Shown here: positions 1-54,375 of the stretch, in pieces | How the letters are laid out: each line of letters opens with the position of its first letter | How positions within the stretch are numbered: position 1 is the first letter of the stretch | Assembly: GCA_049973045.1 (NCBI GenBank) | Contig: JBMFJZ010000001.1 | Location: forward strand, 190,316-254,315 | DNA: 64,000 nucleotides | Reading direction: 5' to 3' | Source of the DNA: Bacteroidota bacterium | GTDB taxonomy: Bacteria > Bacteroidota > Ignavibacteria > 0-14-0-80-59-12 | Made by a program: the position numbers and the translations under genes | Notes under the pieces: generated by a model | Told to the model about the DNA's origin: nothing | The model's input: only the letters and a program-made list of their open reading frames with translations | Database searches by the model: none

Positions 1-645
1 CATGACCGATCTCGAAATTTGATAGGCTTCCCGCCAATATTTTCGCATCGCCGTGTTAGCAGAATGCTTATGAAGTTTAATCGGATGCAAGAGCCCCCAA
101 AGATAAACATACTCGATCCGTTTGTTTTGAGCAGTATAGAACAAATTGATTATGGTCTCCACACCGTAACCGGAGTTCCTGATCTTTTCGGTTACTGGAA
201 GTATATCTTTCTTGAAGACAGCACGTTCTCCTGCGATTGATTTAAATGGATTCATTTTCTTGTCGAGAACATTTTCGGTCGGATGCCCGATCACCATATC
301 TGCTTTTCCATCCCACAGTGGACTTAACAAGAGTGGAACGTAACGCTCCTGAAAATTCAAGAGGTCAGCATCGACAAAGAGTAGAATTTCGCCTTGCGCT
401 TTCGTTATTCCTTCAGCCATAGCAAATCCTTTTCCTCTGTTATGAGGGAATTCGATAACTCGTACCCTGGGTTGATTTGTAAACTCTTTTAGGATTCCGC
501 TTGTACCATCTGTTGAACCATCATTGATGACGATAATTTCGTTCACTTCCTTTGCGGCGATCAATGCTTTCACAACTCCGGATAGCGTTTGTTCTTCATT
601 GAAAGCGCATACAATGGCGGATACTGAATAATTGCTGCTGGTCAC
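1..645 (-). CDS. Glycosyltransferase family 2 (partial; 3' end beyond window edge)
   Basis: Not in the ORF track because it runs off position 1. Manual minus-strand translation from GTG at 645 (RBS GGAG upstream) gives MTSSNYSVSAIVCAFNEEQTLSGVVKALIAAKEVNEIIVINDGSTDGTSGILKEF...VDADL, the classic GT2 signature; no stop before position 1. Confidence 0.8.
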   Translation of the reverse strand, partial: MTSSNYSVSAIVCAFNEEQTLSGVVKALIAAKEVNEIIVINDGSTDGTSGILKEFTNQPRVRVIEFPHNRGKGFAMAEGITKAQGEILLFVDADLLNFQERYVPLLLSPLWDGKADMVIGHPTENVLDKKMNPFKSIAGERAVFKKDILPVTEKIRNSGYGVETIINLFYTAQNKRIEYVYLWGLLHPIKLHKHSANTAMRKYWREAYQISRSVM

Positions 646-694
646 TCTTACTTCTCCTTCAATTTTGTGGAAGGTTCAGTTCATGCAAAGTTTA

Positions 695-2179
695 CTACTG
701 TCTTTCATCGGTCTGCCGATGTGTCCTGTGTTTTTCATCCTGGTGCTCCAGGTAGAGCTCCTCCCATATTGGATCAAGAAGTTCGGCAACCTTTTCATCA
801 TATTGAATCATTGCATTGTAGTATTCAGGATCGCGAAGGGCATCTTCAGCCGATGGGTATCCGGGTTTAGCGTTGGTTTTCAAGAATAGATCATGCGCCT
901 GTTCATGGTGGTCACGGATGAAGCAGGGTCGGATTTCGTTACCGCGACAATGCGGCTGCCGCATGTAGTTATATGATCGTTGCCAATTACGTATGCCGTT
1001 GAAAAGGTCGGAAAAGAGCGCATCGGTTAGCGTCTTGCCCTTAGCGTAGAGTTCATTGACATTATCTTTCCAGTAGGGGATAAACACACACGGATAGATA
1101 TTGCCATTCCAGTCGATGTAGAGATATCCGCCGGAGCGGCCGGCGGAAATGCAGCCGGAAGAAAAAGTCCCACCGTTCCAGAAATCGGCTACAAACCGGC
1201 GCTCTTTTCGAACCAGTTCCTGCTCCCGGTCCCACATTTGTCGCCGTGTAAGAGGAGGGACCTGCCACGAAACATCTACTCCACGACCAATCGGCATGTA
1301 CTGGAATATCCACTCATAGATTGCGCCCCGTTCGTCGAAATAGTACTTAACCATCTCTTCTGAGACCAGGAGCTCCGCATTTGCAGAAGTAGCGGTTACG
1401 GAGATACCAAAGGGCACACCTGCATTCTGCAGGTTTTCAAAAGCAGCTAAGATGCGCCTGAACGTACCCTTGCCGCGGCGCTCGTCAGTCTCTTTCTCAA
1501 AGCCTTCTACTGAGATGGCGGGCGTCATATTACCGACCTCGGCGAGTCGCTCCGCTGTCTTTTCATTAATGAATGTGCCATTGGTGTAAACAAGAAAATA
1601 TTGTTCTTGGTGGCGCTTTGCGATTTCGATGATGTCTATACCGTCATCACGCCACATAAACGGTTCTCCACCAGAAATGACGGTGAACCAGCTTCCCCAT
1701 TTTTCATATTTCTCTTGAAGTATCCGCTCAACCGTTGCCGTTGATAGATGGGGCAAGCCTTTTGGAAGGCTAGCAGCGTAACAGTCTTTACACTGTAAGT
1801 TGCATCTACCCTCAGGCGAAAGAGTCAAAAAACCAGGTGGCTCTATACCGTATTCGTCACGAAACCTACGGCGCGCTTCTTTCCCACTGCCAAATCCTAA
1901 GAACTCCCGCAGAAATAGATTGATCATTCTGTCTCGCACAGCGGGGGAGCCGCGGTCATATGCCTTTAGGGCGGCATGTATCACATTGGTTGCCATGTAA
2001 AACTTATCTTCCCGCTCGCGTCTTGGTCCGATCTCTATTGGGCTCCCTTGATCAACCATGAATTTGCATGCCACCTTCTCTATAGGTGGCAAAGCTATCT
2101 TTGAAATTGCGTGCAGACTAAGCAGACGCAAAGTCTGTTTAGTTATGAAGTAAATAGCGTCCTTTTCGTTCAGTTTCAT
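695..2179 (-). CDS. Radical SAM enzyme with ~110 aa N-terminal extension and Cys-rich (SPASM/twitch-like) C-terminal region
   Basis: 494 aa ORF; CxxxCxxC motif CNLQCKDC at residues 126-133 (nt ~1781-1804), followed by GGEP; further Cys at GCISAG..YPC and HCRGNEIRPC. ATG at 2179 preceded by GGAGGTG. Confidence 0.75.
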   Translation of the reverse strand: MKLNEKDAIYFITKQTLRLLSLHAISKIALPPIEKVACKFMVDQGSPIEIGPRREREDKFYMATNVIHAALKAYDRGSPAVRDRMINLFLREFLGFGSGKEARRRFRDEYGIEPPGFLTLSPEGRCNLQCKDCYAASLPKGLPHLSTATVERILQEKYEKWGSWFTVISGGEPFMWRDDGIDIIEIAKRHQEQYFLVYTNGTFINEKTAERLAEVGNMTPAISVEGFEKETDERRGKGTFRRILAAFENLQNAGVPFGISVTATSANAELLVSEEMVKYYFDERGAIYEWIFQYMPIGRGVDVSWQVPPLTRRQMWDREQELVRKERRFVADFWNGGTFSSGCISAGRSGGYLYIDWNGNIYPCVFIPYWKDNVNELYAKGKTLTDALFSDLFNGIRNWQRSYNYMRQPHCRGNEIRPCFIRDHHEQAHDLFLKTNAKPGYPSAEDALRDPEYYNAMIQYDEKVAELLDPIWEELYLEHQDEKHRTHRQTDERQ

Positions 2180-2284
2180 TTTACACCTCCGCGTTTTTCG
2201 AAATACGCCTTATGGCATCTTGGAATTCTTCAGTCTTCTTCTACATTTCGCGACGGTATCCAATGGATATTTTCTCAAAGATGC

Positions 2285-3043
2285 TCAATATTTCTCCAAA
2301 TTTCGTTCCGTGAAAAGATCATCAGAAAGATTGCTGTCAAATTTTATTTCGCTCAGGATCATCTTTGTGCTATGTTCGTCCTTGAGATCCTTCATCTCAG
2401 CTTCCTTTGACACCCAGTAGCTGCCGATTTTCTCAATGTTCTTTCTCTCCATGACCTTCCAGAGTTTTCCAGCCTTATCATAAAACTCGGTCTTCACGGG
2501 ATAGAAAATGTCCTTGCGCACCCAGATTTTTAGTTTGCCATAGTCCTTGCTTCTACCCTCTTTTGGCGTCAGCTCTAATACATAGTGCTCTGCAGTGGTT
2601 TGAACGAGCTTTGCGTTATAGTTATCTGAATACTTTAGTGTGCCTATATCGTCGTATGTAAAGTCCGTGCCTGCGAATTTTTGATTCTTCACATGTGAGG
2701 CAATCCGGCGTACTTTCTTGAACGCAGGCAAGTATATGTATTGCACATCGTTGGGCAGCCCAAGAAAACCGATACCTCGTTGGTCGGCTGGGGCAAGGAA
2801 ACGGACAAGTCTTTTATTGTCGCCTTTCTGCAGCATTCTGATACTTCTTTCCCTTTCGCTGCCTTTGCTATCAATAAGTATAAGCTTTGCCCTGAGATCC
2901 TGATCCTTTGGCGCATTGATTACCGATTCAAATTTTGTCAGGATTTCTTCAGCGCTTGGTTGCTGTGCAGTTAAAGGTTTAGAAATCAGTAAAGTTGCCG
3001 CAAACAAGGGGACAACAAACGTGAGGCCCTGATTGATTGTCAT
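2285..3043 (-). CDS. LolA-like outer-membrane lipoprotein-sorting family protein (secreted)
   Basis: 252 aa with N-terminal signal peptide; size and composition resemble LolA-like proteins that accompany MMPL/RND exporters. Family assignment from memory, not searched. Confidence 0.55.
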   Translation of the reverse strand: MTINQGLTFVVPLFAATLLISKPLTAQQPSAEEILTKFESVINAPKDQDLRAKLILIDSKGSERERSIRMLQKGDNKRLVRFLAPADQRGIGFLGLPNDVQYIYLPAFKKVRRIASHVKNQKFAGTDFTYDDIGTLKYSDNYNAKLVQTTAEHYVLELTPKEGRSKDYGKLKIWVRKDIFYPVKTEFYDKAGKLWKVMERKNIEKIGSYWVSKEAEMKDLKDEHSTKMILSEIKFDSNLSDDLFTERNLEKY

Positions 3044-3081
3044 ATCGATTCTCCTCGTATATTATGTTTGTGTGGGTTGAA

Positions 3082-3924
3082 TTATTGCTTAACATACTTG
3101 GGTGGATTCCATCCATTTCGATTCCACGATTTTAGTTCGATGTCAATTGTTCCAAGAATGACGTTCATTTTTGCTCGTATTGGAATTTGAGCAGTGTCGT
3201 TGCTGAACCAGCCTTTGAATGGGCCGGTCAAGCCAAAAATCCCCGTGAACTCTGCAGTTCCATCGAACTCGATTACGTCAATTGGGTATCTAACAGCAGC
3301 GATGTTGACGCTCGTGCGCTTATTGTAGAAGTTCAGATATGTGGTCCCCCGCGAGCCGTCAACCATGGTCGGTACGGCGATTAGCTTGCCACTTTTGACG
3401 TTAGCGCGTGCGAAATATAGAAGCGACAACCCGTCCTGCGTCTTACTTTGTATTCGAACAGTGTCAACTTGTTCGATTTGAGCATCGGTTTTAAAGGCGC
3501 TGTCGACGATCCCTTTCTTTATGAGCAAAATTCCTTCTTGTCTATCGAAGTCGTATTTAAGTATTCTCCAATGTTCTCCTTCCTTCTCCCACGCTATGAA
3601 CGACTGTGAAAAGCATTCTTTGTCCATTGTGGTTTCAAAAATGGAATGAAGGTTTACAAAGGGAATCCCTGAGTACGAGTCGATATATGCAATCGCAGTA
3701 TGCCGAGTGCTGTTCTCGATATTTTCTGAGCTAAGCATTTTAGTCCGGATTGTACCTATCTTGATGAACCACCAGCCGACTTCGTACGTGAGGTCTTCGC
3801 CTACCTGAAAGAAACCTGAGTCCTGGACCTTTATTGGTTTAATGAGCATCATGGAGATCAGCCCAAACACAATGCCGCAGAAATAGATGTATATCTGTGT
3901 AAGCTTTTGCTTTCTTTGTCTCAT
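3082..3924 (-). CDS. Hypothetical membrane-anchored protein
   Basis: 280 aa ORF with N-terminal hydrophobic helix (IYIYFCGIVFGLISMMLI); start overlaps the upstream MMPL stop by 4 nt, suggesting translational coupling. Confidence 0.5.
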   Translation of the reverse strand: MRQRKQKLTQIYIYFCGIVFGLISMMLIKPIKVQDSGFFQVGEDLTYEVGWWFIKIGTIRTKMLSSENIENSTRHTAIAYIDSYSGIPFVNLHSIFETTMDKECFSQSFIAWEKEGEHWRILKYDFDRQEGILLIKKGIVDSAFKTDAQIEQVDTVRIQSKTQDGLSLLYFARANVKSGKLIAVPTMVDGSRGTTYLNFYNKRTSVNIAAVRYPIDVIEFDGTAEFTGIFGLTGPFKGWFSNDTAQIPIRAKMNVILGTIDIELKSWNRNGWNPPKYVKQ

Positions 3925-6638
3925 TGCTTTGCTGTATCTGTTTTATTCTGACTCTTATTGGATGCAAAATTTCCTATGAACTTCGCTTTCGTGAATAGTA
4001 TCAAAGCTGGTAAGAAAGTAATAGCGCCAACACTGCTGGCGACCATTGTTATTGCGATAAGCATTCCGAATCGCTGCAGTGGGACAACTTCGGCAAGAAG
4101 AAGAGTAAGGAATCCCGCCATCACAGCAAGCGCATTGATGAGAATAGCTCTGCCAGTTGTCTCCAGGGTTTTCCTCAGCACGTGTGGAACTTTATTATCT
4201 TTTTCGCCGCCATCAGAGCCATATTGTGCAAATTCCTCTTTGAACCGGTTTGTAAAGTGAATCGAGTAGTCGATGCCGACACCAACAGCAATGCTTCCGA
4301 CCAGTGCTGTTGCAACGTCCAGGGGAATTCCTGCAAATCCCATAAGTCCGAAATTGATGATAAGAGTTAGCACGATGGGGGTAACGCTGATAAGCCCACC
4401 AACGACGGAACGAAGTTGGAATGAAAGGAAGATCAATACAAGCGCTATTGCGATAACAAGACTTTGAAATTGACTGCGCATGATGCTGCTGTCTAAGTGC
4501 TGATATATGAGCCCCATCCCTGTCTGGCGAAAAGAGAAGTGAAGACGTTCCGGATCGTCCGGATGCTCCTTACCAAGGGACAGTTGTTCGTAAACCCGGA
4601 CTGGTATAGCAACGTTTTGCTGCTGAAAATCAGCTATGGCATCTCGTACTCCGTTGAGGAAGGAGAGATCGTTCTGCAATTCACTTGGGAACAGAGGAAC
4701 AAGTTGAACAACGCTGTTCTCAATTTTTTCTGATGACTTGCTTCCCTCTTGCCCGTTGAATTCATACGCGGTTTGCATGAGAACATCCACCACTTCATTT
4801 TCATTGATAGCAGATTGTGGATATCTTTTCCTTGCTTCCCATTCTATGAGTCTTGCTGCTCTGTTCGCTTTATACTCCTGAAGAATTTTCCTATCGGCTT
4901 CTGATAATGAGTTGTTGGAACTGAGATTCATAACAATAAGGTCTGTATCCAGTGCGTTGATGTAGTTTTCAATTGCATCGATAACGAATCTGCCTCGTTT
5001 GGTATCCACTGTCCCTAAGGTCGCTTGAATAACTCCTTCAGTTTTGTCAACGTTTACAAGCTGGTTCATCATCTCTTCGCCTTCGAGAAAGAACCACAGG
5101 TTGGTCACCTTGTCTCTTGAATCAGGAATGGTCTTCTGATCGTTCATGACTTCATGCATTTCCGCAATGAGGCTGGATGCAGATTGAGCGTTATGAACGT
5201 CGCTTAACGACTCGAGAAATTTTCCCATACGCCACATCTCTTTCAGCACAAAAGGATTCTGCAAGTCGCCCTGAACAAAGATTGTAATTGGTATTGAACC
5301 TCCGAACTTCTTCTCCATAAACTCCTGGGCAGTCCGAATGCTGGCGCCTGGCTTAAAGTAATCCACCATGTTGACTCGTCTATCAATGCGCAGAATTCCA
5401 GGGGTGCTGATGATAATCAGAATAATCGTCCCGATAACAATAAGTCGTTCATACCTGAAAACGAACTTAGCAACTTGATCCATAAATTTTGCTACAAACG
5501 CTGCGTTCTCAATGAAGCCGGTTTGACGGTTCTTTTCATCATGTAGTAGTGACAGTACCGCAGGGACAAATGTTACAGAGATGATCAGGGCGAACAATAC
5601 TCCAAGTGCTGAAAAGAGCCCGAACTCGCGAATCATTGTGAGATATGAGCCAAAGATGAAAGATAAAAACCCCACCATTGTTGTTAGAGCAGCAAGCAAA
5701 ATAGGGATCGATACCTCACCCAATGATTTTGCAAGTTGGTCTGCATTACCATTGCCTGATCGCACATCCTCATCATATCTGCTGATCAAATGGATGGTAT
5801 ACGCACTTCCGACAGCAATGAGAATCACAGGAATAATATCCGAAATTACGGTTAATGGAATTCCCAAAATGCTCATGCTGCCGAGTACCCAAATCATGCT
5901 CATAAGCACGCTGAGTAGAGGCAGGGCTACACCGCGAAGGGTTCCAAAACTCAGGATAAGCGTGATGCCAACAAGAGCACTTACAATTGGAACCAGGGTC
6001 TTGAGATCTTTAAAAATAAGATCGGTGAGTTCGATCATTTGGAAAGGGATGCCACTGAAATACACTTTTTCCGATAACTTCGCCTGTTCCGTAATCTCCT
6101 TCAGTTCCCGGGCAACGGCTAACCTGTCCGCACTCTGTTTGATTCGACAAATAATCAGGGCCGCTTTCGCATCAGATGAAACGATTCGACCAACGTATAA
6201 GTCTTTTGAAAGGGCATATCTTCTTAGGTGATCCAGTTCTTCGGCAGTTTGCGGCAGATTGTTTTCATCTATCAGCTTACTAACTTCAAGTCCACCGTTG
6301 GTCTTCTTAATGTCAAGGATATTAGCTAGGCTTGTTACTTCTGTTACACCATCAACGAGTTTGAACTGTTCTGTAAGGCGATTGATGTCCTTTATAGTTT
6401 CACGAGTGAAAATATCGTCTGACTCAACGGCAATGAAAGCAAGTGAATTGCCTCCAAATTCTTCTCCGACTTTGTTGAATAATTGTACCACAGGATCATC
6501 CTTTGGCAGATAGCTCAGAATATCGCTGTTCACCTTCAGATTGGTCATTTGGTAGCCAAGCACCAATGACAAAAGGATGGTTACAACTACGATATGAATT
6601 CGGTTCGTAAGTACAGCAGCAAAGAATCTTTCGATCAT
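3921..6638 (-). CDS. MMPL/RND-superfamily exporter
   Basis: 905 aa with two blocks of multiple transmembrane helices separated by large soluble domains, typical MMPL (HpnN-like) architecture. Confidence 0.85.
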   Translation of the reverse strand: MIERFFAAVLTNRIHIVVVTILLSLVLGYQMTNLKVNSDILSYLPKDDPVVQLFNKVGEEFGGNSLAFIAVESDDIFTRETIKDINRLTEQFKLVDGVTEVTSLANILDIKKTNGGLEVSKLIDENNLPQTAEELDHLRRYALSKDLYVGRIVSSDAKAALIICRIKQSADRLAVARELKEITEQAKLSEKVYFSGIPFQMIELTDLIFKDLKTLVPIVSALVGITLILSFGTLRGVALPLLSVLMSMIWVLGSMSILGIPLTVISDIIPVILIAVGSAYTIHLISRYDEDVRSGNGNADQLAKSLGEVSIPILLAALTTMVGFLSFIFGSYLTMIREFGLFSALGVLFALIISVTFVPAVLSLLHDEKNRQTGFIENAAFVAKFMDQVAKFVFRYERLIVIGTIILIIISTPGILRIDRRVNMVDYFKPGASIRTAQEFMEKKFGGSIPITIFVQGDLQNPFVLKEMWRMGKFLESLSDVHNAQSASSLIAEMHEVMNDQKTIPDSRDKVTNLWFFLEGEEMMNQLVNVDKTEGVIQATLGTVDTKRGRFVIDAIENYINALDTDLIVMNLSSNNSLSEADRKILQEYKANRAARLIEWEARKRYPQSAINENEVVDVLMQTAYEFNGQEGSKSSEKIENSVVQLVPLFPSELQNDLSFLNGVRDAIADFQQQNVAIPVRVYEQLSLGKEHPDDPERLHFSFRQTGMGLIYQHLDSSIMRSQFQSLVIAIALVLIFLSFQLRSVVGGLISVTPIVLTLIINFGLMGFAGIPLDVATALVGSIAVGVGIDYSIHFTNRFKEEFAQYGSDGGEKDNKVPHVLRKTLETTGRAILINALAVMAGFLTLLLAEVVPLQRFGMLIAITMVASSVGAITFLPALILFTKAKFIGNFASNKSQNKTDTAKQ

Positions 6639-6691
6639 CTTAGGTTGCTTCGACTATATTAGTTTTTTGGTCGATTCTCCGAGAAAAAAAA

Positions 6692-7264
6692 TTACCTTGT
6701 CTCAATTCCTTTGAACAACACATCGATAAGTGAATTGACACTTTTTTCAATGTCAGATAAGGATGTTTCAACCGTCCACGGATATTCCAAGCCTTTCAAG
6801 GCTGTGACGATAGCAAATGCAGTCAGCCCAGCGTCTTCAACTGCAAAAACCTTTGATGCGATCCCTTCCTCTAAAATGCTTTTAACTAAGTTGAGTTCCT
6901 CCTGAAAGCTCTCTCGACGAGCCTTCTCAATGAACGGATAGTGTCTAAGATAATCATCTTTCAGCGCACTGTAATAATTCGCAAGCTCCTTTAGAAAGCG
7001 CATTCTCGTTAATACAAAGGCTCGAAATTTTTCTTGAGGCGTTTTCGCCTGCTGTATAGCTTCGTGAATCCTCTCTCGTAAGTATCGGGATTCTTTATCA
7101 ATTATCTCGGCAAAGATCTGTTCTTTGGTTTTGAAATAATGGTAAATCGTCCCCTTTCCAATATGCGCCAGCTTTGCAATCTCGTCTACGGTTGTCTTCT
7201 TTAGTCCAAACCGAGCGAAAAGATTTTGGGAGGTTTTAAGTATGAGTTCTTTAGTGTTTATCAT
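6692..7264 (-). CDS. TetR/AcrR family transcriptional regulator
   Basis: 190 aa; N-terminal HTH KKTTVDEIAKLAHIGKGTIYHYFKTKEQIF is the canonical TetR signature; sits at the head of the MMPL gene set. Confidence 0.85.
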   Translation of the reverse strand: MINTKELILKTSQNLFARFGLKKTTVDEIAKLAHIGKGTIYHYFKTKEQIFAEIIDKESRYLRERIHEAIQQAKTPQEKFRAFVLTRMRFLKELANYYSALKDDYLRHYPFIEKARRESFQEELNLVKSILEEGIASKVFAVEDAGLTAFAIVTALKGLEYPWTVETSLSDIEKSVNSLIDVLFKGIETR

Positions 7265-7745
7265 GACGCTTCTATATACGATGAATCGACTAAAATGGTT
7301 TCACGGTACAATGTAGCTAAAAGAGTTTAAATTGTCAAGAAAAAGTGTTGTGTCTACATTCAAAATCCATTTCCGAATTCATTTGTGGCAAGCGCAGTTA
7401 AATCTTCTGTGACTTGGCTTAAAGAGACGAAGCTTGGGGAGGCTCTTCGAGGTGTGAGATCATGTGTGGGCCGGCCTTGGCGCCGGAGGCGCCATGCTCT
7501 AAGCGGTTTTGCTAATTTGCTTCAAGTATCTGCTTATTCCGCGAGACCTTATCCGATTTTCCTTATTGCGTGCCTCCGATCTGGTAGGGAATTCTTCTAC
7601 GTGAACTAACACCCATGGTATCCCGCTACGAGTTGATTTATTCTCACCTGAGTTATGCTCACCCAGGCGATTCCATAAATCCTCAGTGCTCCCGACATAA
7701 TAGCTGCCTGTCCTGGAGCTTCTGATTATGTAGACATAGTGGATG

Positions 7746-7820
7746 TCGGGGCGGGCGGATTTGAACCGCCGACCTCACGGTCCCGAACCGTGCGCTCTAA
7801 CCAGACTGAGCCACGCCCCG
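7746..7820 (-). tRNA. tRNA-Pro (anticodon CGG)
   Basis: Minus-strand sequence CGGGGCGTGGCTCAGTCTGGTTAGAGCGCACGGTTCGGGACCGTGAGGTCGGCGGTTCAAATCCGCCCGCCCCGA folds as a cloverleaf: 7 bp acceptor, GGTTCAAAT T-loop, anticodon loop TTCGGGA. No encoded CCA. Confidence 0.85.
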
Positions 7821-20243: not shown

Positions 20244-20276
20244 AGCCTCGGTTTTTCCTGTTTCCCTGGGGGGTTG

Positions 20277-21614
20277 ATGAAGCGTGTTGGGTTTTATACA
20301 CTGGGCTGCAAGGTAAATTATGCGGAAAGTGCGTGTATTGCTGCGATGTTTCAGCAGCATGGCTTCCAGCTTACAAGCGAGCCGGGTGAAGCCGATGTTT
20401 GGATTATCAATACTTGCAGTGTAACAGAAAATGCAGACCGAGAGTGCCGACAGCTCATCCGCAGGATACATCGGAAGGCACCAGAGGCATTTGTTATTGT
20501 TACCGGGTGTTACGCCCAACTCCAGCCAGAGCGGGTAGCCTCCCTTGAAGGTGTAGATGCTGTTCTCGGGTCTCGAGAGAAAAGCCAAATCTTCGAACTT
20601 ATCTCTGAGTTCAAACGCCGGGGCGTTCCACTGATCGCTGTCTCTCCGCACAATGAGCTTGATGATTTCTGGTTAGCGGATTCAAGCGGCTTTGGTGAAC
20701 GGACTCGAGCCTTCCTGAAAATTCAAGACGGATGCGACTATAACTGCTCCTTTTGTGTTATTCCGCAGGCAAGAGGGGCATCGAGGAGCGAGCCGATCGA
20801 TAGCCTCATCATTCGCGCACGGTCGCTTATCAAAAGGGGATATAAGGAAATTGTGCTCACCGGAGTGAATGTTGGAGACTATGGGAGAAAGATCGGTGGC
20901 AGTTTGTATGAGCTTCTTTGTAAGTTAGATGAACTTGAAGGGCTGCAGCGTCTTCGCATCAGTTCTATTGAGCCCAATTTACTAACAGATGAGATAATCA
21001 AGCTTGTTGCCCGTTCAGAGAAAATTTGCCCGCATTTTCATATACCGCTTCAGAGTGGAAGTGACGCTGTGCTTGCGAGAATGCGGCGCCGATACAAAAG
21101 TGTGCTTTATCGCGATCGTGTTGAAACAATCTTATCACACATTCCCCATGCGGGCATCGGTGTGGATGTGATCGTTGGGTTCCCGGGTGAAACGGAAAGA
21201 GAATTTGAGGAGACATATCGATTCCTTTCAGATCTACCTGTCTCTTACTTTCATGTTTTCAGTTACTCGGTGCGACAGAACACGCCTGCAGCATCGATGG
21301 GGGGAGTGATCTCCCCTCGGGAGCTCGAGCGTCGTAGCAGAACTCTTCGAACACTTGGTGTTATGAAGCATCGTCGCTGGATGGGAAACTATATCGGTGA
21401 GCAAGTTTCTGTGCTTCTGGAGGGGGACTACACAGATGATGGTGCATTTATGCATGGCTTCACCCCAAATTATATGCGGGTGCGTCTTCCTGCACAGCGA
21501 AATCTCGAGAACGAGATCGTTACAGCCCGTGTCGTTGGGCTGCTCGGTGATCTTGCGCAAGGTACTTTCTGTCCATCTGAAGATGAGATTGTGATCCCCC
21601 AAGCCAATCTATGA
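20277..21614 (+). CDS. mtaB: tRNA methylthiotransferase, MtaB-like (radical SAM, MiaB/RimO family)
   Basis: N-terminal MTTase domain (FYTLGCKVNYAES), radical SAM CDYNCSFC, C-terminal TRAM-like region. Confidence 0.75.
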   Translation: MKRVGFYTLGCKVNYAESACIAAMFQQHGFQLTSEPGEADVWIINTCSVTENADRECRQLIRRIHRKAPEAFVIVTGCYAQLQPERVASLEGVDAVLGSREKSQIFELISEFKRRGVPLIAVSPHNELDDFWLADSSGFGERTRAFLKIQDGCDYNCSFCVIPQARGASRSEPIDSLIIRARSLIKRGYKEIVLTGVNVGDYGRKIGGSLYELLCKLDELEGLQRLRISSIEPNLLTDEIIKLVARSEKICPHFHIPLQSGSDAVLARMRRRYKSVLYRDRVETILSHIPHAGIGVDVIVGFPGETEREFEETYRFLSDLPVSYFHVFSYSVRQNTPAASMGGVISPRELERRSRTLRTLGVMKHRRWMGNYIGEQVSVLLEGDYTDDGAFMHGFTPNYMRVRLPAQRNLENEIVTARVVGLLGDLAQGTFCPSEDEIVIPQANL

Positions 21615-21639: not shown

Positions 21640-22941
21640 ATGGTGAGAATCAAAGAGGTCGCTGCGGGCAGTATCGCTGCCAGCCTGAAATTGAGATCAG
21701 GCGATGAACTTGTTGAGATCAATGGGCACCGCATCAGGGACGAAATTGACTTGAGATTTTATGAAGCTGACCAGCACATCGAATTAAAGTGCGCTCATGA
21801 CGGCAAGGTCACTCTTTATGAAATTGAAAAAGAGACTGATGAACCTCTCGGTATCGTACTCGATGATATGAAGGTTCTCCATTGTGGCAACAATTGCATT
21901 TTTTGTTTTGTTGACCAAAACCCCAGGGGATTACGTGATGCGCTTTACATACGTGATGGAGATTATCGACTTTCGTTCATGTATGGTAACTACACGACTT
22001 TGACAAATGCAGGTAATGCGATTCTTCAGCGCATTGTCGAGCAAAGACTCTCCCCACTTTACATCTCTGTACATTCAACTGTGCCGGACATCCGTCGTAG
22101 ACTGCTGGGATTGAGGAAAGATGATCATCTCTTAGAAAAAATGCGCTTTCTTGCTAATCATGGCATTGACATGCACACGCAAATTGTTCTTTGTCCCGGG
22201 ATCAATGATGGAGCCTCGTTGCAGCAAACGATGCAGGACATGTGGGAGCTTCGAGACCATGTCATCTCACTGGCAATTGTTCCAGTTGGCTTAACTGATC
22301 ACCGAGCAAGCCTTGTGCCGTTGCAGCGCGTTGATAAGCTGTATGCAATGGAGCTACTTCAGACCGTCTGTGAGTGGCAGGAGAGGTTTCGCGCCATCGC
22401 AGGCAGAAATTTTGCCTATCCTTCCGATGAATTTTTCCTTCTTGCTGAGGAGAAGATCCCTGATTCTGCATACTACGATGGTTTCCCACAAATTGAAAAC
22501 GGTGTTGGAATGGTGCGGTCGTTTCTTGATCAGTTTGCCTGTGCCTCACGCCAGTTTCCGCGTCGCATGCCTGAACCAAAAACTATAACTCTTGCAACAG
22601 GTGTTCTTGCTTCCCCGTTTATCCGAAATGTTGTCGCTGGACGTCTTTCGAAGATCACAGGTTTAGAGGTGCGTGTTGCGGTGGCTTCCAATCGTTTGTT
22701 CGGGAAAAGCGTGACGGTGGCTGGTCTCCTCTCTGGAAAATGCTTCTATGAGGCTCTCCATGACCAACCACGAAGCGATTTAGTGCTGCTACCACCAGAT
22801 GTTCTCAATGAAGATGAGCTTTTCCTTGACGACTGGACACTCGATGAACTTTCAATGAAGTTAGACCAGAACGTACTGGTGTTTGACGGAAATTGGAGGC
22901 ATGTTTTTCGAATCCTTCATAAAAAGGAGAATCTGCATTGA
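21640..22941 (+). CDS. DUF512 protein (PDZ domain plus radical-SAM-like core)
   Basis: N-terminal PDZ-like segment, then HCGNNCIFCFVDQ Cys cluster and conserved C-terminal region characteristic of the DUF512 family. Family assignment from memory. Confidence 0.7.
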   Translation: MVRIKEVAAGSIAASLKLRSGDELVEINGHRIRDEIDLRFYEADQHIELKCAHDGKVTLYEIEKETDEPLGIVLDDMKVLHCGNNCIFCFVDQNPRGLRDALYIRDGDYRLSFMYGNYTTLTNAGNAILQRIVEQRLSPLYISVHSTVPDIRRRLLGLRKDDHLLEKMRFLANHGIDMHTQIVLCPGINDGASLQQTMQDMWELRDHVISLAIVPVGLTDHRASLVPLQRVDKLYAMELLQTVCEWQERFRAIAGRNFAYPSDEFFLLAEEKIPDSAYYDGFPQIENGVGMVRSFLDQFACASRQFPRRMPEPKTITLATGVLASPFIRNVVAGRLSKITGLEVRVAVASNRLFGKSVTVAGLLSGKCFYEALHDQPRSDLVLLPPDVLNEDELFLDDWTLDELSMKLDQNVLVFDGNWRHVFRILHKKENLH

Positions 22942-36516: not shown

Positions 36517-38898
36517 TCATTTTATTAGCAACATTTTCCTCGATTCGGAATAACTTCCTGCAATCAGCCGTACTATGTAAACTCCACTGGGTAGACTGGA
36601 GCCATTGAACTGGGTCGTGTAGAAGCCTGGTGTGAGTTCTCTATCTATCAGGACAGCCACTTCCTGCCCGAGCACATCATAAACACGGAGAGATACTTTT
36701 ACCGCCGATGGCGGCACAAGTGCCTGCGAACCTATTGAAAACTCGATCGTCGTAGTCGGGTTAAATGGGTTCGGATAGTTTTGATACAGATGATAACCTT
36801 CAGCAATAGGAGGAGTTTCCACGACGCCGGTGGTTGAGCGTGTCTTAAATCGCCAAACCTCTGACCATTTGCTCGAACCGTAGGCGTTTATTGCAGCAAC
36901 CCTCCATGCATAGACTGTGCTTACCTGAAGAGAATCTTTTGTGAACTTGTAAGTCGTATCAGCTACCAGCACTGTATCGAGGATTGGTGCGGCGAAATCG
37001 ATGCTCCTGGAAACCTGAAGCCTATAGTTTAATGCGGCTGCCGATGGATGCCATATAAATGTTGGCTTGATCGAGATTTCTGTAGACAGATTGTTTGGAG
37101 AAGCAAGGAGTGGGGTCCTCGGAAACGCCGTGGTGTAATTCCATGTGTCACTGAACTGACCCGATCCACCTGCATTATTAGCTGCGACTCTCCAATGATA
37201 TTTCTGCAGACCCTCCATTCCAGTTATAAGTTTCAAAGTGTCTCTATATGCAAGTTCATCCACCAGAAGGTTACTTGCAAAGCTTGAATCCTGCGAGACT
37301 TGAACTCGATACGAAGCGGTTAGATACGAGCTGAACCAGTGTAGCACAACAGTATCGCGCTCATTCTCAGAACCATTTGCAGGTCCAGCTAAAAGTGGCG
37401 GCTGTGGCGCAGAGATCGTTACAGTGTTGCTCGATGAGCTTTCGTTATAATTGCGGTCAACAGCCGTAACGATGTAAGAATATGGACCTTTCCCTGGCGG
37501 GGTAGGAGGGGGAGTGCTCCGAGTTCCCTCAACTGAGATGATGTTTCGAGCGTCTGCGAGTTCGTCCGGAGTGATGTTTGAATGATCAAATCGGTAGATG
37601 ACGTAACGTGTAGCTGTATCCCCATCAATTGCAGGAACTGGAAGATCCCACCTGAGAATTGGTGGAGCATTTCCAGCTTGTGCATATTGTAGATTTTGTG
37701 GAGGATTAGGTGCAATGGAATCTTTCCATGCCATTTGGGGAAGAAGGGAGGGATAGCGATAGTAAACGAGCTTCAGTGAATCAGCGAAATTTCCATCGTT
37801 ACCGGTTATGTTCAAAGCTCTGAAGAAAATGCTTCCACCTACCTTTGCATTTGCTCTATTCTGCCTGATCTGCTGTTCAATTTCTCCGGGTCCCCAATTC
37901 GGGATTCTATATGCAGCTTGTCCCACGTATAAGTGTCTCCCATTCAGTTGCTCCGCCCACCATGGCATCAATTTGCCATAATCCTGATTGCCTCCATTGG
38001 GCCAATAAAGCTGCGGTGCGATGTAATCGATCGTTTTTGCATTAAGCCAGGCAAGCGCGTCAGCATACAGGACATTGTAAGCATCAAGTCCAATAATTCC
38101 CGGCGGAATTCCGTTTTTCCATATCCCGAACGGGGAGATTCCAAATTTCACCCATGGCTTGATTGCATTTGTGCTATCGTGCACTTGTTTGATCAACAGG
38201 TTAATGTTATCGCGTCGCCAATCTCCTCGATCTGTGAATCCGCGATTATAATGAGCGAAAGTTGAATCGTCTTCATTTGTAATTTGATTGGGGGGGTAGG
38301 GATAAAAATAATCGTCAAAGTGCACACCATCCACATCGTATCTTCGAACGACATCCATGATTACTGACGTAACATAATCTCTAACCTGTGGAAGTCCTGG
38401 GTCAAGTATCTTGAGCGTACCGAAGGTCAATATCCAATCTGGATGCTTGACAGAAACGTGATTGGGGTCGAGCTGATAGCTTCCAACACTTCTAACAGCT
38501 CTATATGGATTAAACCATGCATGGAGCTCCATGCCGCGTTTATGCGTCTCCTCTATAGCAAACTGGAGCGGATCATAGTATGGAGAAGGAGGCTGTCCCT
38601 GCTTTCCCGTTAGCCAGTATGACCATGGCTCAAGTGTCGATTGATAGAATGCATCACATTCAGGGCGAATCTGAAAAATCACCGCATTTATGCCGGCGTT
38701 TTTGAGCTTGTCAAGTAGTGTTACCAGTTCATTTTTTTGTTGATATGCTGGGAGTCCTCGTTGAGAAGGCCAGTCGAGATTAGTGACTGTCGCAATCCAT
38801 GCTCCGCGAAATTCACGCTTGGGCGGAGCGGAGGTTTGAGAACTTATGTTAGATACAGCAAATATCAGAAGTAGTGACAAGGAGTTCCTAAGACGCAT
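36517..38898 (-). CDS. Glycoside hydrolase family-10-like (GHL10/YngK-type) protein with Fn3-like domains and T9SS CTD
   Basis: N-terminal EFRGAWIATVTNLDWPS is the GHL10 hallmark; central Fn3-like repeats; C-terminal HLYQNYPNPFNPTTTIEF. Confidence 0.75.
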   Translation of the reverse strand: MRLRNSLSLLLIFAVSNISSQTSAPPKREFRGAWIATVTNLDWPSQRGLPAYQQKNELVTLLDKLKNAGINAVIFQIRPECDAFYQSTLEPWSYWLTGKQGQPPSPYYDPLQFAIEETHKRGMELHAWFNPYRAVRSVGSYQLDPNHVSVKHPDWILTFGTLKILDPGLPQVRDYVTSVIMDVVRRYDVDGVHFDDYFYPYPPNQITNEDDSTFAHYNRGFTDRGDWRRDNINLLIKQVHDSTNAIKPWVKFGISPFGIWKNGIPPGIIGLDAYNVLYADALAWLNAKTIDYIAPQLYWPNGGNQDYGKLMPWWAEQLNGRHLYVGQAAYRIPNWGPGEIEQQIRQNRANAKVGGSIFFRALNITGNDGNFADSLKLVYYRYPSLLPQMAWKDSIAPNPPQNLQYAQAGNAPPILRWDLPVPAIDGDTATRYVIYRFDHSNITPDELADARNIISVEGTRSTPPPTPPGKGPYSYIVTAVDRNYNESSSSNTVTISAPQPPLLAGPANGSENERDTVVLHWFSSYLTASYRVQVSQDSSFASNLLVDELAYRDTLKLITGMEGLQKYHWRVAANNAGGSGQFSDTWNYTTAFPRTPLLASPNNLSTEISIKPTFIWHPSAAALNYRLQVSRSIDFAAPILDTVLVADTTYKFTKDSLQVSTVYAWRVAAINAYGSSKWSEVWRFKTRSTTGVVETPPIAEGYHLYQNYPNPFNPTTTIEFSIGSQALVPPSAVKVSLRVYDVLGQEVAVLIDRELTPGFYTTQFNGSSLPSGVYIVRLIAGSYSESRKMLLIK

Positions 38899-48099: not shown

Positions 48100-48511
48100 G
48101 AGCTGCTTCTCCTCTTTTACAGAGTGAAACAAGAAAGAAATGATGATGTGCTATTAGCGGTTTGCTGAGACGCGCGATATCGCACCGTCGGTTGAGCATC
48201 AAAATCCTCCGATTAGGAATATACAAAAAATACGTAGTGATGTCAAGCTTTTGGGACGACTTTGCTGGCTCAACTTGAATAATCAAGCAGAATCCTCATC
48301 GACCCCAGACACCGCACCCCTGTTTTCAGTTATTGATTTTTTGGCGCTGTATCTACTTAGTTAGGGGCATGTAGCGCTCCAATCAACAGGATTTTGCACC
48401 CTTGAAACAAACCTTGCATCTCTTTCAAGAATTTTGCAGAATAATGGCGGCGCTCTGTATCGCCTCTCCTAAAGTTTGGCGAGTTTTCATTACATTTGAT
48501 GGGATAGTACT

Positions 48512-54302: not shown

Positions 54303-54375
54303 GCGCCCATGGCTCAATTGGTAGAGCAACTGACTCTTAATCAGTGGGTTCCAGGTTCGAGTCCTGGTGGGCGCA
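54303..54375 (+). tRNA. tRNA-Lys (anticodon CTT)
   Basis: GCGCCCATGGCTCAATTGGTAGAGCAACTGACTCTTAATCAGTGGGTTCCAGGTTCGAGTCCTGGTGGGCGCA; 7 bp acceptor, GGTTCGAGT T-loop, anticodon loop CTCTTAA. Confidence 0.85.

What the first reader, a model, noticed from the sequence alone, without database searches (positions are those of the whole stretch)
1..7264. TetR-headed gene set coupling an MMPL exporter and LolA-like protein to a radical SAM enzyme and a GT2: candidate lipid/pigment tailoring-export system
Six co-directional minus-strand genes (TetR, MMPL/RND exporter, small membrane protein, LolA-like secreted protein, radical SAM, GT2) with short or overlapping junctions (MMPL and the 280 aa gene overlap by 4 nt). 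MMPL + LolA-like + GT2 is the export/tailoring signature of aryl-polyene/flexirubin-type and hopanoid-type loci, but a radical SAM enzyme is not part of the described versions I know. The set runs off the left edge, so biosynthetic core genes may lie just outside the window.
Basis: partly seen in the sequence, partly recalled or inferred. Interest (0 to 1): 0.65.

Follow-up and report, generated by a model that had tools for sequence, protein, structure and literature searches.

The report
Lipid transporter operon carrying Mss-like enzyme
An uncultured Bacteroidota genome carries a widespread, TetR-controlled envelope lipid-transporter operon into which a radical-SAM enzyme related to bacterial membrane-spanning-lipid synthases has been inserted, a link between lipid tailoring and lipid transport that has apparently not been described.

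Summary
The six minus-strand genes are real and correctly typed: TetR, an HAE3/MMPL pump, DUF3108, a LolA-like protein, a radical SAM and a GT2 cut by the window edge. Extending the contig leftwards finds no KS/ACP core, only LysE and a DUF1302-like outer-membrane barrel.

In 41 related metagenome loci the conserved unit is TetR–MMPL–LolA-like–(DUF3108)–OMP. This resembles the AmeABCD-type HAE3 transporter. Lipid enzymes sit in or beside it in varying combinations: patatin, FabH, GT2, PAP2, ABC1 and this radical SAM.

The radical SAM is accessory. It is absent from the closest relatives, which have GT2–patatin instead. It recurs in 5–7 of the 41 cassettes, at different positions and in several phyla.

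It belongs to a large clade of anaerobes. That clade aligns end to end (30–34% identity, E=5e-83) with a Clostridia/Atribacterota clade that carries the published motifs of Mss, the membrane-spanning lipid synthase.

Best reading: a TetR-gated lipid tailoring and envelope transport operon. It is not an aryl-polyene, flexirubin or hopanoid locus. The enzyme's product and the transport direction are inferred, and no experimentally validated Mss sequence could be compared directly.

The parts
6692..7264 (-). TetR/AcrR-family regulator (190 aa), first gene of the operon. It resembles FadR and QacR over its full length.
   Evidence: Pfam TetR_N 56.8 bits and TetR_C_24. Best NCBIfam partial match is Bacillus FadR. 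PDB full-length matches are QacR and FadR. Homologues at 45-61% identity sit next to rSAM homologues or at the head of MMPL cassettes in other phyla.
3921..6638 (-). HAE3/MMPL-type RND inner-membrane transporter (905 aa) with a sterol-sensing-like domain.
   Evidence: Pfam MMPL 167 bits and Sterol-sensing 58 bits. TIGR00921 HAE3 scores 309 bits against a 351.9 cutoff. Nearest solved relatives are NPC1, HpnN and MmpL3/4/5. Present in 38 of 41 LolA-centred loci.
3082..3924 (-). DUF3108 protein (280 aa) with an N-terminal hydrophobic anchor or signal. It overlaps MMPL by 4 nt and is an optional fourth component of the cassette.
   Evidence: Pfam DUF3108 41.6 bits. No PDB sequence relative. Present in 9 of 41 cassettes, either before LolA as here or between LolA and the OMP.
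2285..3043 (-). Periplasmic LolA-like (TP_0789-like/DUF1329-like) lipid carrier (252 aa) that starts with a signal-peptide-like segment.
   Evidence: Pfam LolA_like 200.6 bits and DUF1329 44.5 bits. PDB relatives are 9tp6, 3bk5, 4z48 and 3buu. Used as the anchor for the metagenome scan.
695..2179 (-). Radical SAM enzyme (494 aa): a five-helix N-terminal domain, the CNLQCKDC cluster motif at residues 126-133, and a twitch-like C-terminal part with three invariant Cys (343, 364, 419). It belongs to the clade of FCB-group (Fibrobacteres-Chlorobi-Bacteroidetes) and candidate-phylum bacteria that is sister to Mss (membrane-spanning lipid synthase).
   Evidence: for the fold and domains. for the relationship to the Clostridia/Atribacterota clade: 30-34% identity, E=5e-83 and 78 invariant columns. 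for the lipid-gene neighbourhoods.
1..645 (-). Small soluble GT2 glycosyltransferase, 215 of 233 codons, cut by the window edge. It is of the GpgS/DPM1-like type.
   Evidence: Pfam Glycos_transf_2 98 bits. The full gene is in L001 at 11535-12236. PDB relatives are GpgS, GtrB-like and DPMS. Homologues at 44-80% identity sit in related cassettes: directly upstream of LysE-OMP in L092, and separated from LysE-OMP by patatin in L084-L086.
7310..7338 (-). Promoter-like site TTGACA-17-TACATT. Its -10 hexamer ends 45 nt upstream of the TetR start codon.
   Evidence: This is a consensus match only, and the number of such sites in the region is not above shuffles.
7286..7293 (-). TTAGTCGA, a 7/8 match to the right arm of a palindrome (TCGACCAA-N9-TTGGTCGA) that is conserved upstream of orthologous TetR genes elsewhere. 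The left arm is not recognisable here.
   Evidence: The full palindrome (at least 13 of 16 matches) occurs in 15 of 39 TetR upstream regions against 17 of 780 control windows.

Best explanation
The region is most of one TetR-headed operon of an uncultured Bacteroidota bacterium. The operon has two layers.

Layer 1 is a conserved envelope-spanning transporter cassette for lipids or other hydrophobic molecules.
- A TetR repressor, probably released by a lipid or acyl-CoA-like ligand.
- An HAE3/MMPL proton-driven RND pump that takes its substrate from the inner membrane.
- A periplasmic LolA-like carrier, here with a DUF3108 protein.
- A DUF1302-like outer-membrane barrel. It lies just left of the window, after a LysE-type permease.

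Layer 2 is a set of accessory lipid enzymes placed inside the cassette.
- A radical SAM enzyme of the Mss (membrane-spanning lipid synthase) family.
- A small GT2.

Proposed working: the radical SAM uses 5'-deoxyadenosyl radical chemistry and one auxiliary Fe-S cluster on unactivated carbons of membrane-lipid acyl tails. The most likely reaction is tail-to-tail C-C coupling to give diabolic-acid-type bolalipids. The GT2 makes or decorates a glycolipid or carrier lipid. The pump, carrier and barrel then move the product, or lipids displaced by it, between the inner and outer membranes.

Shown: gene content, conservation of the cassette, recurrent insertion of the radical SAM, and homology to the Mss-type clade.

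Inferred: the enzyme's product, the GT2 substrate, the TetR ligand and the direction of transport.
For: Cassette:
- In 41 LolA-centred metagenome loci of at least 5 kb, MMPL is present in 38, the OMP in 35 and TetR in 30, always in the same orientation.
- The same contig in NCBI assemblies shows LysE and the OMP to the left of the window.
- The MMPL's nearest solved relatives are lipid transporters: NPC1, HpnN and MmpL3.

Link between the radical SAM and the cassette:
- It lies within 6 kb of LolA in 5 of 41 loci, and within the fetched locus in 7 of 41. I estimate roughly 0.3% by chance.
- Its position differs between loci: MMPL-rSAM-LolA-OMP in L103, MMPL-LolA-rSAM-OMP in L107 and L117, rSAM-GT2-LysE-OMP in L092.
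- From the radical SAM side, cassette genes are nearby in KSB1, WOR-3, Spirochaetota (Rectinema), Bacteroidales and Acidobacteriota.

Regulator:
- A TetR gene lies within 6 kb of the radical SAM in 17 of 69 loci. Seven of these are clear orthologues of the window's TetR (45-61% identity).
- Pairwise identities of the TetR and radical SAM proteins correlate (Mantel r=0.46, p=0.002).
- One palindromic operator-like motif precedes these TetR genes whether MMPL or the radical SAM follows.

Lipid function of the radical SAM:
- Its neighbours across phyla are patatin, ABC1/UbiB, FabH, PlsC-type acyltransferases, PAP2, PgpA, CdsA, UppS, an AttH/CrtC-like hydratase and an alpha-oxoamine-synthase-like aminotransferase.
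- It aligns end to end with a clade from Moorella, Thermanaeromonas, Halothermothrix, Thermosediminibacterales and Atribacterota. Identity is 30-34%, E=5e-83, with 78 invariant columns including all six Cys.
- That clade shows the published Mss block motifs CNxxCxGC, DF and VEPC...F.
- In Halothermothrix the clade's gene is followed by HGD-D/BcrAD genes, the domains of the PlsA/Ger ether-lipid enzymes. In Moorella it lies near ABC1.
- The clade's unusual taxon range matches what is published for 'Mss homologues': FCB group, candidate phyla, Spirochaetes, Chloroflexi, PVC group (Planctomycetes-Verrucomicrobia-Chlamydiae), Patescibacteria and Woesearchaeota.
Against: - No validated Mss sequence (WP_004080829.1 or WP_129545148.1) could be obtained. 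Membership rests on a proxy clade identified by motifs, taxa and context.
- Identity to that clade is only 30-34%, and the window's clade lacks VEPC (it has IYPC).
- The window protein has D where Mss has the conserved G in CNxxCxGC.
- The closest relatives of this cassette (LolA 85-87% identical) have no radical SAM.
- Most radical SAM homologues (about 90%) have no cassette within 6 kb, so the coupling is facultative.
- Described DUF1302/DUF1329/HAE3 systems have been linked to export of toxic hydrocarbons or to use of fatty esters, not to export of endogenous lipids.
- Co-transcription is not shown.
Confidence: 0.55

Rival explanations
1. The cassette is an efflux or uptake system for external hydrophobic compounds such as hydrocarbons, fatty esters or host and environmental lipids, like AmeABCD or the Pseudomonas DUF1302/DUF1329/RND genes. 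The accessory enzymes (patatin, radical SAM, GT2, FabH) would then process scavenged lipids rather than tailor a product for export.
For: - AmeABCD has the same kinds of parts and confers monoterpene tolerance.
- Pseudomonas putida DUF1302/DUF1329/BNR/RND mutants are impaired on Tween 20 and butyl stearate.
- The TetR resembles FadR and QacR, which sense acyl-CoA or drugs.
- Patatin-like lipases are the commonest accessory gene apart from DUF3108.
- The radical SAM family also occurs in Patescibacteria and in DPANN (small-genome, Woesearchaeota-type) archaea. By general knowledge these organisms scavenge lipids.
Against: - RND pumps normally export.
- Several accessory genes are anabolic: FabH, PlsC-type acyltransferases, GT2 and an alpha-oxoamine-synthase-like enzyme.
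- No beta-oxidation genes were seen in the cassettes.
Confidence: 0.25
2. The radical SAM sits next to the transporter by accident of genome arrangement. The two share nothing beyond a neighbouring TetR gene.
For: - The nearest relatives of the cassette lack the radical SAM.
- Only about 8% of radical SAM loci have cassette genes within 6 kb.
- There is a 105-nt gap between LolA and the radical SAM.
Against: - The two are found together in at least six phylum-level groups, with different gene orders, including insertion between MMPL and LolA and between LolA and the OMP.
- The frequency is about 40 times my chance estimate.
- The TetR family and operator motif are shared.
- No terminator-like site was found in the intergenic gaps.
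Confidence: 0.07
3. One reading: the export and tailoring end of an aryl-polyene, flexirubin or hopanoid-type pigment or lipid cluster, with its core genes lying outside the window.
Against: - No KS, ACP, dehydratase, squalene-hopene cyclase or hpn genes lie within 10 kb on either side, or in 41 related cassettes apart from an occasional FabH.
- HpnN models score far below their cutoffs.
- The conserved partners are TetR and a DUF1302-like OMP instead.
Confidence: 0.03
4. The radical SAM is a peptide (RiPP) or protein maturase, and the pump exports the modified peptide.
For: - The best sequence and structure matches among solved proteins are peptide- or protein-modifying SPASM/twitch enzymes: SkfB, SuiB and anSME.
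- Some genome annotations call clade members PqqE or MftC.
Against: - The N-terminal domain is predicted to be all-helical. By my knowledge, a peptide-recognition (RRE) domain would contain a beta-sheet.
- No conserved small precursor gene, peptidase or ABC exporter is nearby.
- The neighbours are consistently lipid enzymes.
- NCBIfam maturase models score far below their cutoffs.
Confidence: 0.04

Closest known systems
Mss, the bacterial membrane-spanning lipid synthase (Thermotoga maritima Tmari_0825/WP_004080829.1; Thermoanaerobacter ethanolicus WP_129545148.1; Sahonero-Canavesi et al. 2022, PMC13159169)
   Same: - A radical SAM enzyme of about 460-500 aa with a CN..C..C cluster motif.
- The same block structure: GGEP; S.EG...D.RRG.G; W.F..P.G; DFWN; PC.F; N...PC.
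- Full-length alignment at 30-34% identity, E=5e-83, to the Clostridia/Atribacterota clade that carries the published Mss motifs.
- Restricted to anaerobes, with the same odd taxon range.
- Lipid-gene neighbours, with ABC1 shared with Moorella.
   Different: - A distinct sister clade: WIFQYMPIGR in place of WSFHYIPIGR, IYPC in place of VEPC, a two-residue GG insertion and two C-terminal insertions.
- The window protein has D in place of the conserved G of CNxxCxGC.
- No member of this clade has been tested experimentally, and the validated enzymes themselves could not be aligned here.
- Being embedded in an outer-membrane transport cassette has not been reported for Mss.
AmeABCD-type tetrapartite HAE3 RND system (Castellaniella defragrans, PMC6394551) and the Pseudomonas DUF1302/DUF1329/BNR/RND genes (bioRxiv 10.1101/2020.07.04.188060)
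   Same: An HAE3-type RND pump, a periplasmic LolA-superfamily (DUF1329-like) protein, a DUF1302-type outer-membrane barrel and a fourth extracytoplasmic protein, all encoded together.
   Different: - The fourth protein is DUF3108, not COG4447/BNR, and it is optional (9 of 41 loci).
- The LolA-like protein has about 250 aa against 451.
- The OMP has about 450 aa and matches DUF1302 only weakly (21.4 bits against a 23.2 cutoff).
- The cassette is headed by a conserved TetR with its own operator-like motif.
- The gene order differs.
- It carries lipid-enzyme accessory genes rather than lying in a catabolic island.
HpnN (hopanoid) and BstA/B/C (sterol) lipid transporters
   Same: RND/MMPL-type pumps with a sterol-sensing-like domain that move an endogenous, specially tailored lipid to the outer membrane. 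Partial matches: HpnN 141 bits and BstA 63 bits; PDB 6wu0.
   Different: - Scores are far below the equivalog cutoffs.
- No hopanoid or sterol synthesis genes are nearby.
- Per, HpnN works without dedicated LolA-like or OMP partners.
Aryl-polyene and flexirubin gene clusters
   Different: - No KS, ACP, KR or DH core is present here.
- Instead there is a TetR, a DUF1302-like OMP and a radical SAM, none of which I know as part of those clusters.
Tes/GDGT-MAS, the archaeal tetraether synthase (PDB 7tol/7tom)
   Different: Only generic radical SAM similarity in sequence (profile E=0.002). The window's family has three invariant downstream Cys, which suggests one auxiliary cluster. By my knowledge GDGT-MAS has more metal sites.

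Membership tests
Mss (membrane-spanning lipid synthase) family | Radical SAM core with CxxxCxxC, extended to CNxxCxGC (block I of Sahonero-Canavesi et al.) | tested here: inconclusive
   The window has CNLQCKDC: the Cys and Asn are present, but Gly is replaced by Asp. Most members of its clade have Gly, for example CNLRCIGC in KSB1 and CNLNCTGC in Aminicenantes.
Mss (membrane-spanning lipid synthase) family | Homology to a validated Mss at the published threshold (E<=1e-50, identity>=30%) | not testable with these tools
   WP_004080829.1 and WP_129545148.1 could not be retrieved. Against proxy members of the Clostridia/Atribacterota clade the window protein scores E=5e-83 at 34% identity over 469 aa, and 30-34% identity to Moorella, Halothermothrix and Thermanaeromonas proteins.
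Mss (membrane-spanning lipid synthase) family | Blocks II-VI: GGE; N/S/G-rich with R; G,S,N,E then W..P,Q,R; DF, Y, H, VEPC...P,C,F; prolines plus Cys | tested here: inconclusive
   Present: GGEP, S.EG..ETD.RRGKG, FGISVTA..N, W.FQYMPIGR, DFWN, PCVF and N.I.PC. Absent: VEPC (the window has IYPC) and the His. The proxy clade has YFHITAxGDVEPCAF exactly as described.
Mss (membrane-spanning lipid synthase) family | Produces long-chain alpha,omega-dicarboxylic (diabolic or iso-diabolic) acids when expressed anaerobically | not testable with these tools
   Needs an experiment.
AmeABCD-type HAE3 tetrapartite transporter | Inner-membrane RND pump of the HAE3 family | tested here: inconclusive
   TIGR00921 is the best NCBIfam model, at 309 bits against a cutoff of 351.9.
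AmeABCD-type HAE3 tetrapartite transporter | Periplasmic LolA-superfamily (DUF1329) partner | tested here: met
   LolA_like 200.6 bits and DUF1329 44.5 bits, both above their cutoffs.
AmeABCD-type HAE3 tetrapartite transporter | DUF1302 outer-membrane protein encoded with the pump | tested here: inconclusive
   A 450-aa protein left of the window matches DUF1302 at 21.4 bits (cutoff 23.2) over a short stretch. Its homologue in L068 starts with a signal-peptide-like segment. It is present in 35 of 41 cassettes. The barrel fold was not modelled.
AmeABCD-type HAE3 tetrapartite transporter | Second periplasmic protein of the COG4447/BNR type | tested here: not met
   The fourth protein is DUF3108, with no BNR or COG4447-like match.
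Hopanoid transporter HpnN locus | HpnN equivalog score and neighbouring hopanoid (shc/hpn) genes | tested here: not met
   TIGR03480 scores 141 bits against 752, and NF052374 scores 80 against 1100. No such genes lie within 10 kb.
Aryl-polyene / flexirubin cluster | KS/CLF, ACP, ketoreductase and dehydratase core next to the export genes | tested here: not met
   Absent from the extended contig and from 41 related cassettes. Only a FabH appears, in 5 of them.
Gms (GMGT synthase) | Extra COG4001 domain, and a strong match to Thermococcus Gms | not tested
   No Gms sequence or COG model was available. The published bacterial Gms set is small (193 sequences), whereas this family has 691 clusters (at 50% identity) below E=1e-30. 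This argues against membership only indirectly.

The most novel reading that the evidence does not exclude
[quoted passage not shown] The interchangeable accessory genes (the Mss-like radical SAM, patatin, FabH, GT2, PAP2) would decide which lipid is made. In this genome the cargo would be a bolalipid made by the Mss-like enzyme. That would give the first transport route for diabolic-acid or brGDGT-type lipids, and a genomic marker for their uncultured producers.
Probability: 0.25. Interest if true: 0.7.

Novelty: new variant of a known kind. Interest (0 to 1): 0.5.

Why it matters
Branched tetraether and diabolic-acid lipids are used widely as palaeoclimate proxies. Their anaerobic producers, and how cells handle these lipids, remain poorly known.

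Three things here give testable leads:
- An Mss-family gene repeatedly wired into an envelope lipid-transport operon, under a shared TetR and operator.
- A cultured carrier of the arrangement, Rectinema subterraneum.
- A concrete candidate for how such lipids, or the lipids they displace, cross the periplasm.

The finding also assigns a working role, with a variable 'accessory enzyme' content, to a very common but uncharacterised cassette: TetR, HAE3 pump, LolA-like protein and DUF1302-like OMP.

Tried and rejected
Attempts to obtain a validated Mss sequence all failed.
- The supplement of the PMC version is not held.
- The bioRxiv tables S18-S22 are truncated.
- The Black Sea paper's supplements hold no sequences.
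- A search for the accession numbers found only the same papers.
- The afdb50 fold library is not available.
- A homologue search seeded with a 'Bacillota' metagenome-assembled member returned only uncultured and Patescibacteria relatives.

The link to Mss was finally made indirectly. The 50%-clustered library search exposed a second tier of hits. A search from one Firmicutes member of that tier then followed.

Ideas considered and rejected:
- HpnN, aryl-polyene and RiPP-maturase readings.
- Base composition as evidence that the radical SAM was inserted recently. Its GC (0.489) lies within the range of the window's other genes (0.451-0.502). The other cassette genes are slightly AT-richer (0.41-0.44).

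Weak results:
- The promoter and terminator scans are no better than shuffles.
- The 7-bp inverted repeat flanking the promoter was seen only by eye and is not claimed.
- The first ORF-based counts missed genes, for example the GT2 in L084. They were redone on all stop-to-stop ORFs.

Full report
**Observation.** The six minus-strand genes exist as described.
- TetR: 6692..7264.
- A 905-aa MMPL/RND protein: 3921..6638.
- A 280-aa protein: 3082..3924. It overlaps MMPL by 4 nt.
- A 252-aa protein: 2285..3043.
- A 494-aa protein: 695..2179.
- An ORF starting with GTG at 645 that runs off the left edge.

Pfam confirms TetR_N, MMPL with a sterol-sensing-like domain, DUF3108, LolA_like (200.6 bits, plus DUF1329), Radical_SAM with a sub-threshold SPASM match, and Glycos_transf_2. 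In NCBIfam the best model for the pump is HAE3 (TIGR00921), at 309 bits against a cutoff of 351.9. No equivalog model comes near its cutoff for the radical SAM, the GT2 or the TetR. The intergenic gaps are 38-105 nt with no terminator-like site in them. A TTGACA-17-TACATT site lies upstream of TetR, although such sites are no more frequent here than in shuffles. The exact proteins occur in NCBI assemblies labelled 'Bacteroidota bacterium', with consecutive accessions MGB9773177-81.

**Extending the contig.** The same radical SAM protein lies on three public contigs. Left of the window they continue as follows.
- The rest of the GT2 (233 aa in all).
- A 185-nt gap.
- A LysE-type permease.
- Ten nucleotides later, a 450-aa protein with no Pfam hit on record.
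- A convergent esterase.

There is no KS, ACP or dehydratase gene. The 450-aa protein matches DUF1302 weakly (21.4 bits against a cutoff of 23.2). A homologue from the same protein cluster starts with a signal-peptide-like segment.

**What is conserved, seen from the LolA side.** I scanned metagenome contigs with an alignment of LolA-like proteins and obtained 80 loci. I scored all stop-to-stop ORFs with HMMs built from the clusters found earlier. Counts among the 41 loci of at least 5 kb:

| Gene | Loci out of 41 |
|---|---|
| MMPL | 38 |
| DUF1302-like OMP | 35 |
| TetR | 30 |
| DUF3108 | 9 |
| patatin-like phospholipase | 7 |
| this radical SAM | 5 within 6 kb, 7 within the locus |
| FabH | 5 |
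| phasin-like | 5 |
| ABC1/UbiB | 4 |
| GT2 | 4 |
| LysE | 3 |
| a GNAT-like protein | 3 |

- The order is nearly always TetR-MMPL-LolA-(DUF3108)-OMP.
- Single loci add PAP2, an alpha-oxoamine-synthase-like aminotransferase, and a membrane GT2.
- The conserved unit is therefore a four- or five-part transporter cassette, and the accessory genes vary.

Its nearest described analogue is AmeABCD: an HAE3 pump, a DUF1302 OMP, a DUF1329 LolA-like protein and one more periplasmic protein. The Pseudomonas DUF1302/DUF1329/BNR/RND genes are similar. The pump's closest solved relatives are NPC1, HpnN and MmpL3/4/5.

**The radical SAM is an accessory that recurs.** The closest relatives of the window's cassette are L084-L086.
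- Their identities to the window's proteins are LolA 85-87%, TetR 87%, OMP 77-81%, GT2 63-80% and LysE 59-62%.
- In L084 and L085 the order is LolA-GT2-patatin-LysE-OMP.
- In L086 a 236-aa membrane protein lies between LolA and GT2.
- None of the three has a radical SAM.

Elsewhere the radical SAM is inside the cassette at different places.
- MMPL-rSAM-LolA-OMP in L103.
- MMPL-LolA-rSAM-OMP in L107 and L117.
- rSAM-GT2-LysE-OMP in L092, the same order as in the window's genome.
- TetR-MMPL-rSAM-x-LolA-OMP in a KSB1 genome, L013.

At most a few copies of this gene are expected per genome of a few thousand genes. I estimate the chance of one lying within about ten genes of a given cassette at roughly 0.3%. 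The observed rate is 12-17%.

**Seen from the radical SAM side.** Among the 69 loci of at least 5 kb, genes found within 6 kb of the radical SAM were:

| Gene | Loci out of 69 |
|---|---|
| TetR | 17 |
| phasin-like | 13 |
| ABC1 | 9 |
| patatin | 9 |
| GT2 | 6 |
| OMP | 6 |
| LolA | 5 |
| MMPL | 5 |

Further neighbours include:
- FabH.
- PlsC-type acyltransferases: L068 reads TetR-rSAM-FabH-acyltransferase-patatin-acyltransferase-GT2-GT2-OMP.
- An AttH/CrtC-like hydratase in L040.
- In five Planctomycetota genomes, a conserved PgpA-x-rSAM-...-UppS-CdsA block.

Seven of the TetR genes are clear orthologues of the window's TetR, at 45-61% identity. Pairwise identities of TetR and radical SAM correlate (Mantel r=0.46, p=0.002, n=17).

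A palindrome, TCGACCAA-N9-TTGGTCGA, lies about 35 nt upstream of the start codon in 15 of 39 TetR upstream regions (at least 13 of 16 matches). It occurs in 17 of 780 control windows. It appears whether MMPL or the radical SAM follows the TetR gene. The window keeps only the right arm.

**Identity of the radical SAM.**
- Size of the family: more than 3300 clusters at 90% identity among the candidates scored, and 691 clusters at 50% identity below E=1e-30.
- The window's clade is 40-75% identical across Cloacimonadota, Fibrobacterota, KSB1, Aminicenantes, Planctomycetota, Anaerolineae, Spirochaetota, Armatimonadota, Omnitrophota, Patescibacteria, Woesearchaeota and Altiarchaeota.
- Six Cys are invariant: C126, C130 and C133, plus C343, C364 and C419.
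- An AlphaFold model (pLDDT 84.9) shows a five-helix N-terminal domain, a radical SAM barrel and a C-terminal extension.
- Sequence profiles see GDGT-MAS only at E=0.002. It is therefore not a Tes.

**The link to Mss.** The published distribution of 'Mss homologues' matches this clade closely. It covers the FCB group, candidate phyla, Spirochaetes, some Chloroflexi, deltaproteobacteria, Omnitrophica/Planctomycetes, Patescibacteria and Woesearchaeota. Validated Mss sequences were out of reach, so the link was made indirectly.
- The exhaustive library search showed a second tier of 450-500-aa proteins at 250-375 bits.
- One of them, P0296, a Firmicutes sequence from a metagenome-assembled genome, aligns with the window protein over 469 residues at 34% identity, E=5e-83.
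- Its relatives come from Moorella, Thermanaeromonas, Desulfofundulus, Halothermothrix, Koleobacter (Thermosediminibacterales), Thermoanaerobacterales and Atribacterota. These are the orders named in the paper for Mss.
- That clade carries CNLxCxGCWAG and YFHITAxGDVEPCAF, which is the published description of Mss blocks I and V.
- In Halothermothrix orenii the gene is followed by HGD-D, HGD-D and BcrAD_BadFG genes. These are the domains of the PlsA/Ger ether-lipid enzymes. In Moorella humiferrea it is followed by a 231-aa protein and then ABC1/UbiB.
- The 231-aa protein and ABC1 also recur beside the window's clade.
- The two clades share 78 invariant columns, including all six Cys.

I conclude that the window's enzyme belongs to the Mss family in the broad sense, in an untested sister clade. 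That clade differs by WIFQYMPIGR, IYPC in place of VEPC, and three insertions. In the window protein, D replaces the block I glycine.

**Mechanism and its limits.** The best-supported picture is a TetR-gated operon. An Mss-like enzyme remodels membrane-lipid tails and a small GpgS/DPM1-like GT2 acts on a lipid or carrier. An HAE3 pump, a LolA-like carrier and a DUF1302-like barrel then move lipid across the envelope.

Gene content, synteny and homology are shown. The product, the GT2 substrate, the ligand of the TetR (which resembles FadR and QacR) and the direction of transport are inferred.

- The main rival is that the cassette handles external hydrophobic compounds or scavenged lipids, as proposed for AmeABCD and the Pseudomonas genes.
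- Coincidental adjacency is disfavoured by recurrence in several phyla with different gene orders.
- The aryl-polyene, flexirubin, hopanoid and RiPP readings fail their defining features.

**Novelty.** Both halves are known kinds: Mss homologues since 2022, and HAE3/DUF1329/DUF1302 cassettes since 2018.

The combination may be new, together with the variable accessory content of the cassette and the shared TetR and operator motif. A full-text search for papers holding at least three of 'radical SAM', MMPL, LolA and DUF3108 returned none. The Mss papers I read mention clustering only with gms, tes or ger genes.

I rate it a new variant of a known kind, of moderate interest.

Noticed in passing
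L133, L137, L134, L127, L027, L161, L156 and other loci, about 35 nt upstream of the TetR start codons; window 7286..7293 (-) keeps a half-site only: A conserved palindrome, TCGACCAA-N9-TTGGTCGA, lies just downstream of the -10 region of TetR genes that head MMPL cassettes or TetR-radical SAM pairs. It occurs in 15 of 39 upstream regions against 17 of 780 control windows. It is probably the TetR operator.
   Followed up: partly
L084, L085, L086 (metagenome contigs Ga0066636_10004713, Ga0210049_1008005, Ga0180009_10015100): The closest relatives of the window's cassette carry GT2 and patatin between LolA and LysE-OMP, with no radical SAM. L086 also has a 236-aa membrane protein there. In L084 and L085 only the last ~50 codons of DUF3108 remain.
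   Followed up: yes
L164 (Halothermothrix orenii CP001098.1, 1719626-1733014) and L165 (Moorella humiferrea CP136418.1): In H. orenii the Mss-type radical SAM is followed by HGD-D, HGD-D and BcrAD_BadFG genes (PlsA/Ger-like ether-lipid enzymes). In Moorella it is followed by a 231-aa protein and then an ABC1/UbiB kinase. Both neighbours also occur beside the window's clade.
   Followed up: partly
L056, L066, L073, L079, L080 (Planctomycetota): A conserved block of PgpA, an 835-aa membrane protein with no Pfam match and the radical SAM. Two unknown proteins, PurA, UppS and CdsA follow. This is a phospholipid-synthesis neighbourhood. The 835-aa protein is unexplained.
   Followed up: partly
L040:11763-12935 (WOR-3); L021, L032, L090, L092: In L040 an AttH/CrtC-like lipocalin hydratase lies two genes downstream of the radical SAM. 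In the other four loci an alpha-oxoamine-synthase-like aminotransferase (Spt/KBL/BioF type) lies beside it.
   Followed up: no
L048 (Rectinema subterraneum SURF-ANA1, NZ_WESA01000026.1): A cultured spirochaete carries LolA, a 466-aa protein in the OMP position, MMPL, a TetR-like gene and the radical SAM together. This makes it a candidate organism for experiments.
   Followed up: no
L086:1533-2243, L095, L103:3063-3770, L107:5786-6493, L040:8463-9260: A family of ~235-aa multi-pass membrane proteins with no Pfam match recurs inside or beside these cassettes.
   Followed up: no
window 7460..7750 (-) and 7746..7820 (-): A small GIY-YIG-type ORF lies between the TetR promoter and a tRNA gene. It is called as a 76-aa gene in L002 and is not called in L001. 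Together they mark the right-hand boundary of the operon.
   Followed up: partly
window 59004..59434 (+), 54303..54375 (+): A tmRNA gene (158.6 bits) and a second tRNA.
   Followed up: no
window 20274..21614 (+), 21640..22941 (+): Two further radical SAM genes next to ribosomal protein S1: a MiaB/RimO-like one (UPF0004 plus Radical_SAM) and a PDZ-DUF512 type. They are unrelated to the finding.
   Followed up: no
window 36517..38898 (-), 48512..51121 (+), 45091..48132 (-), 42996..45053 (-): Two proteins with the type IX secretion sorting tail (a GHL10 hydrolase and an amidase/SLT protein), consistent with Bacteroidota. There is also a SusC-like TonB-dependent receptor, followed by a 685-aa protein with no Pfam match that may be SusD-like.
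   Followed up: no
(P0168, P0170, P0197, P0198; L050, L054): The radical SAM clade also occurs in Patescibacteria (Parcubacteria, Moranbacteria, Woesebacteria) and in DPANN and Altiarchaeota archaea. These are organisms thought to depend on scavenged lipids.
   Followed up: no
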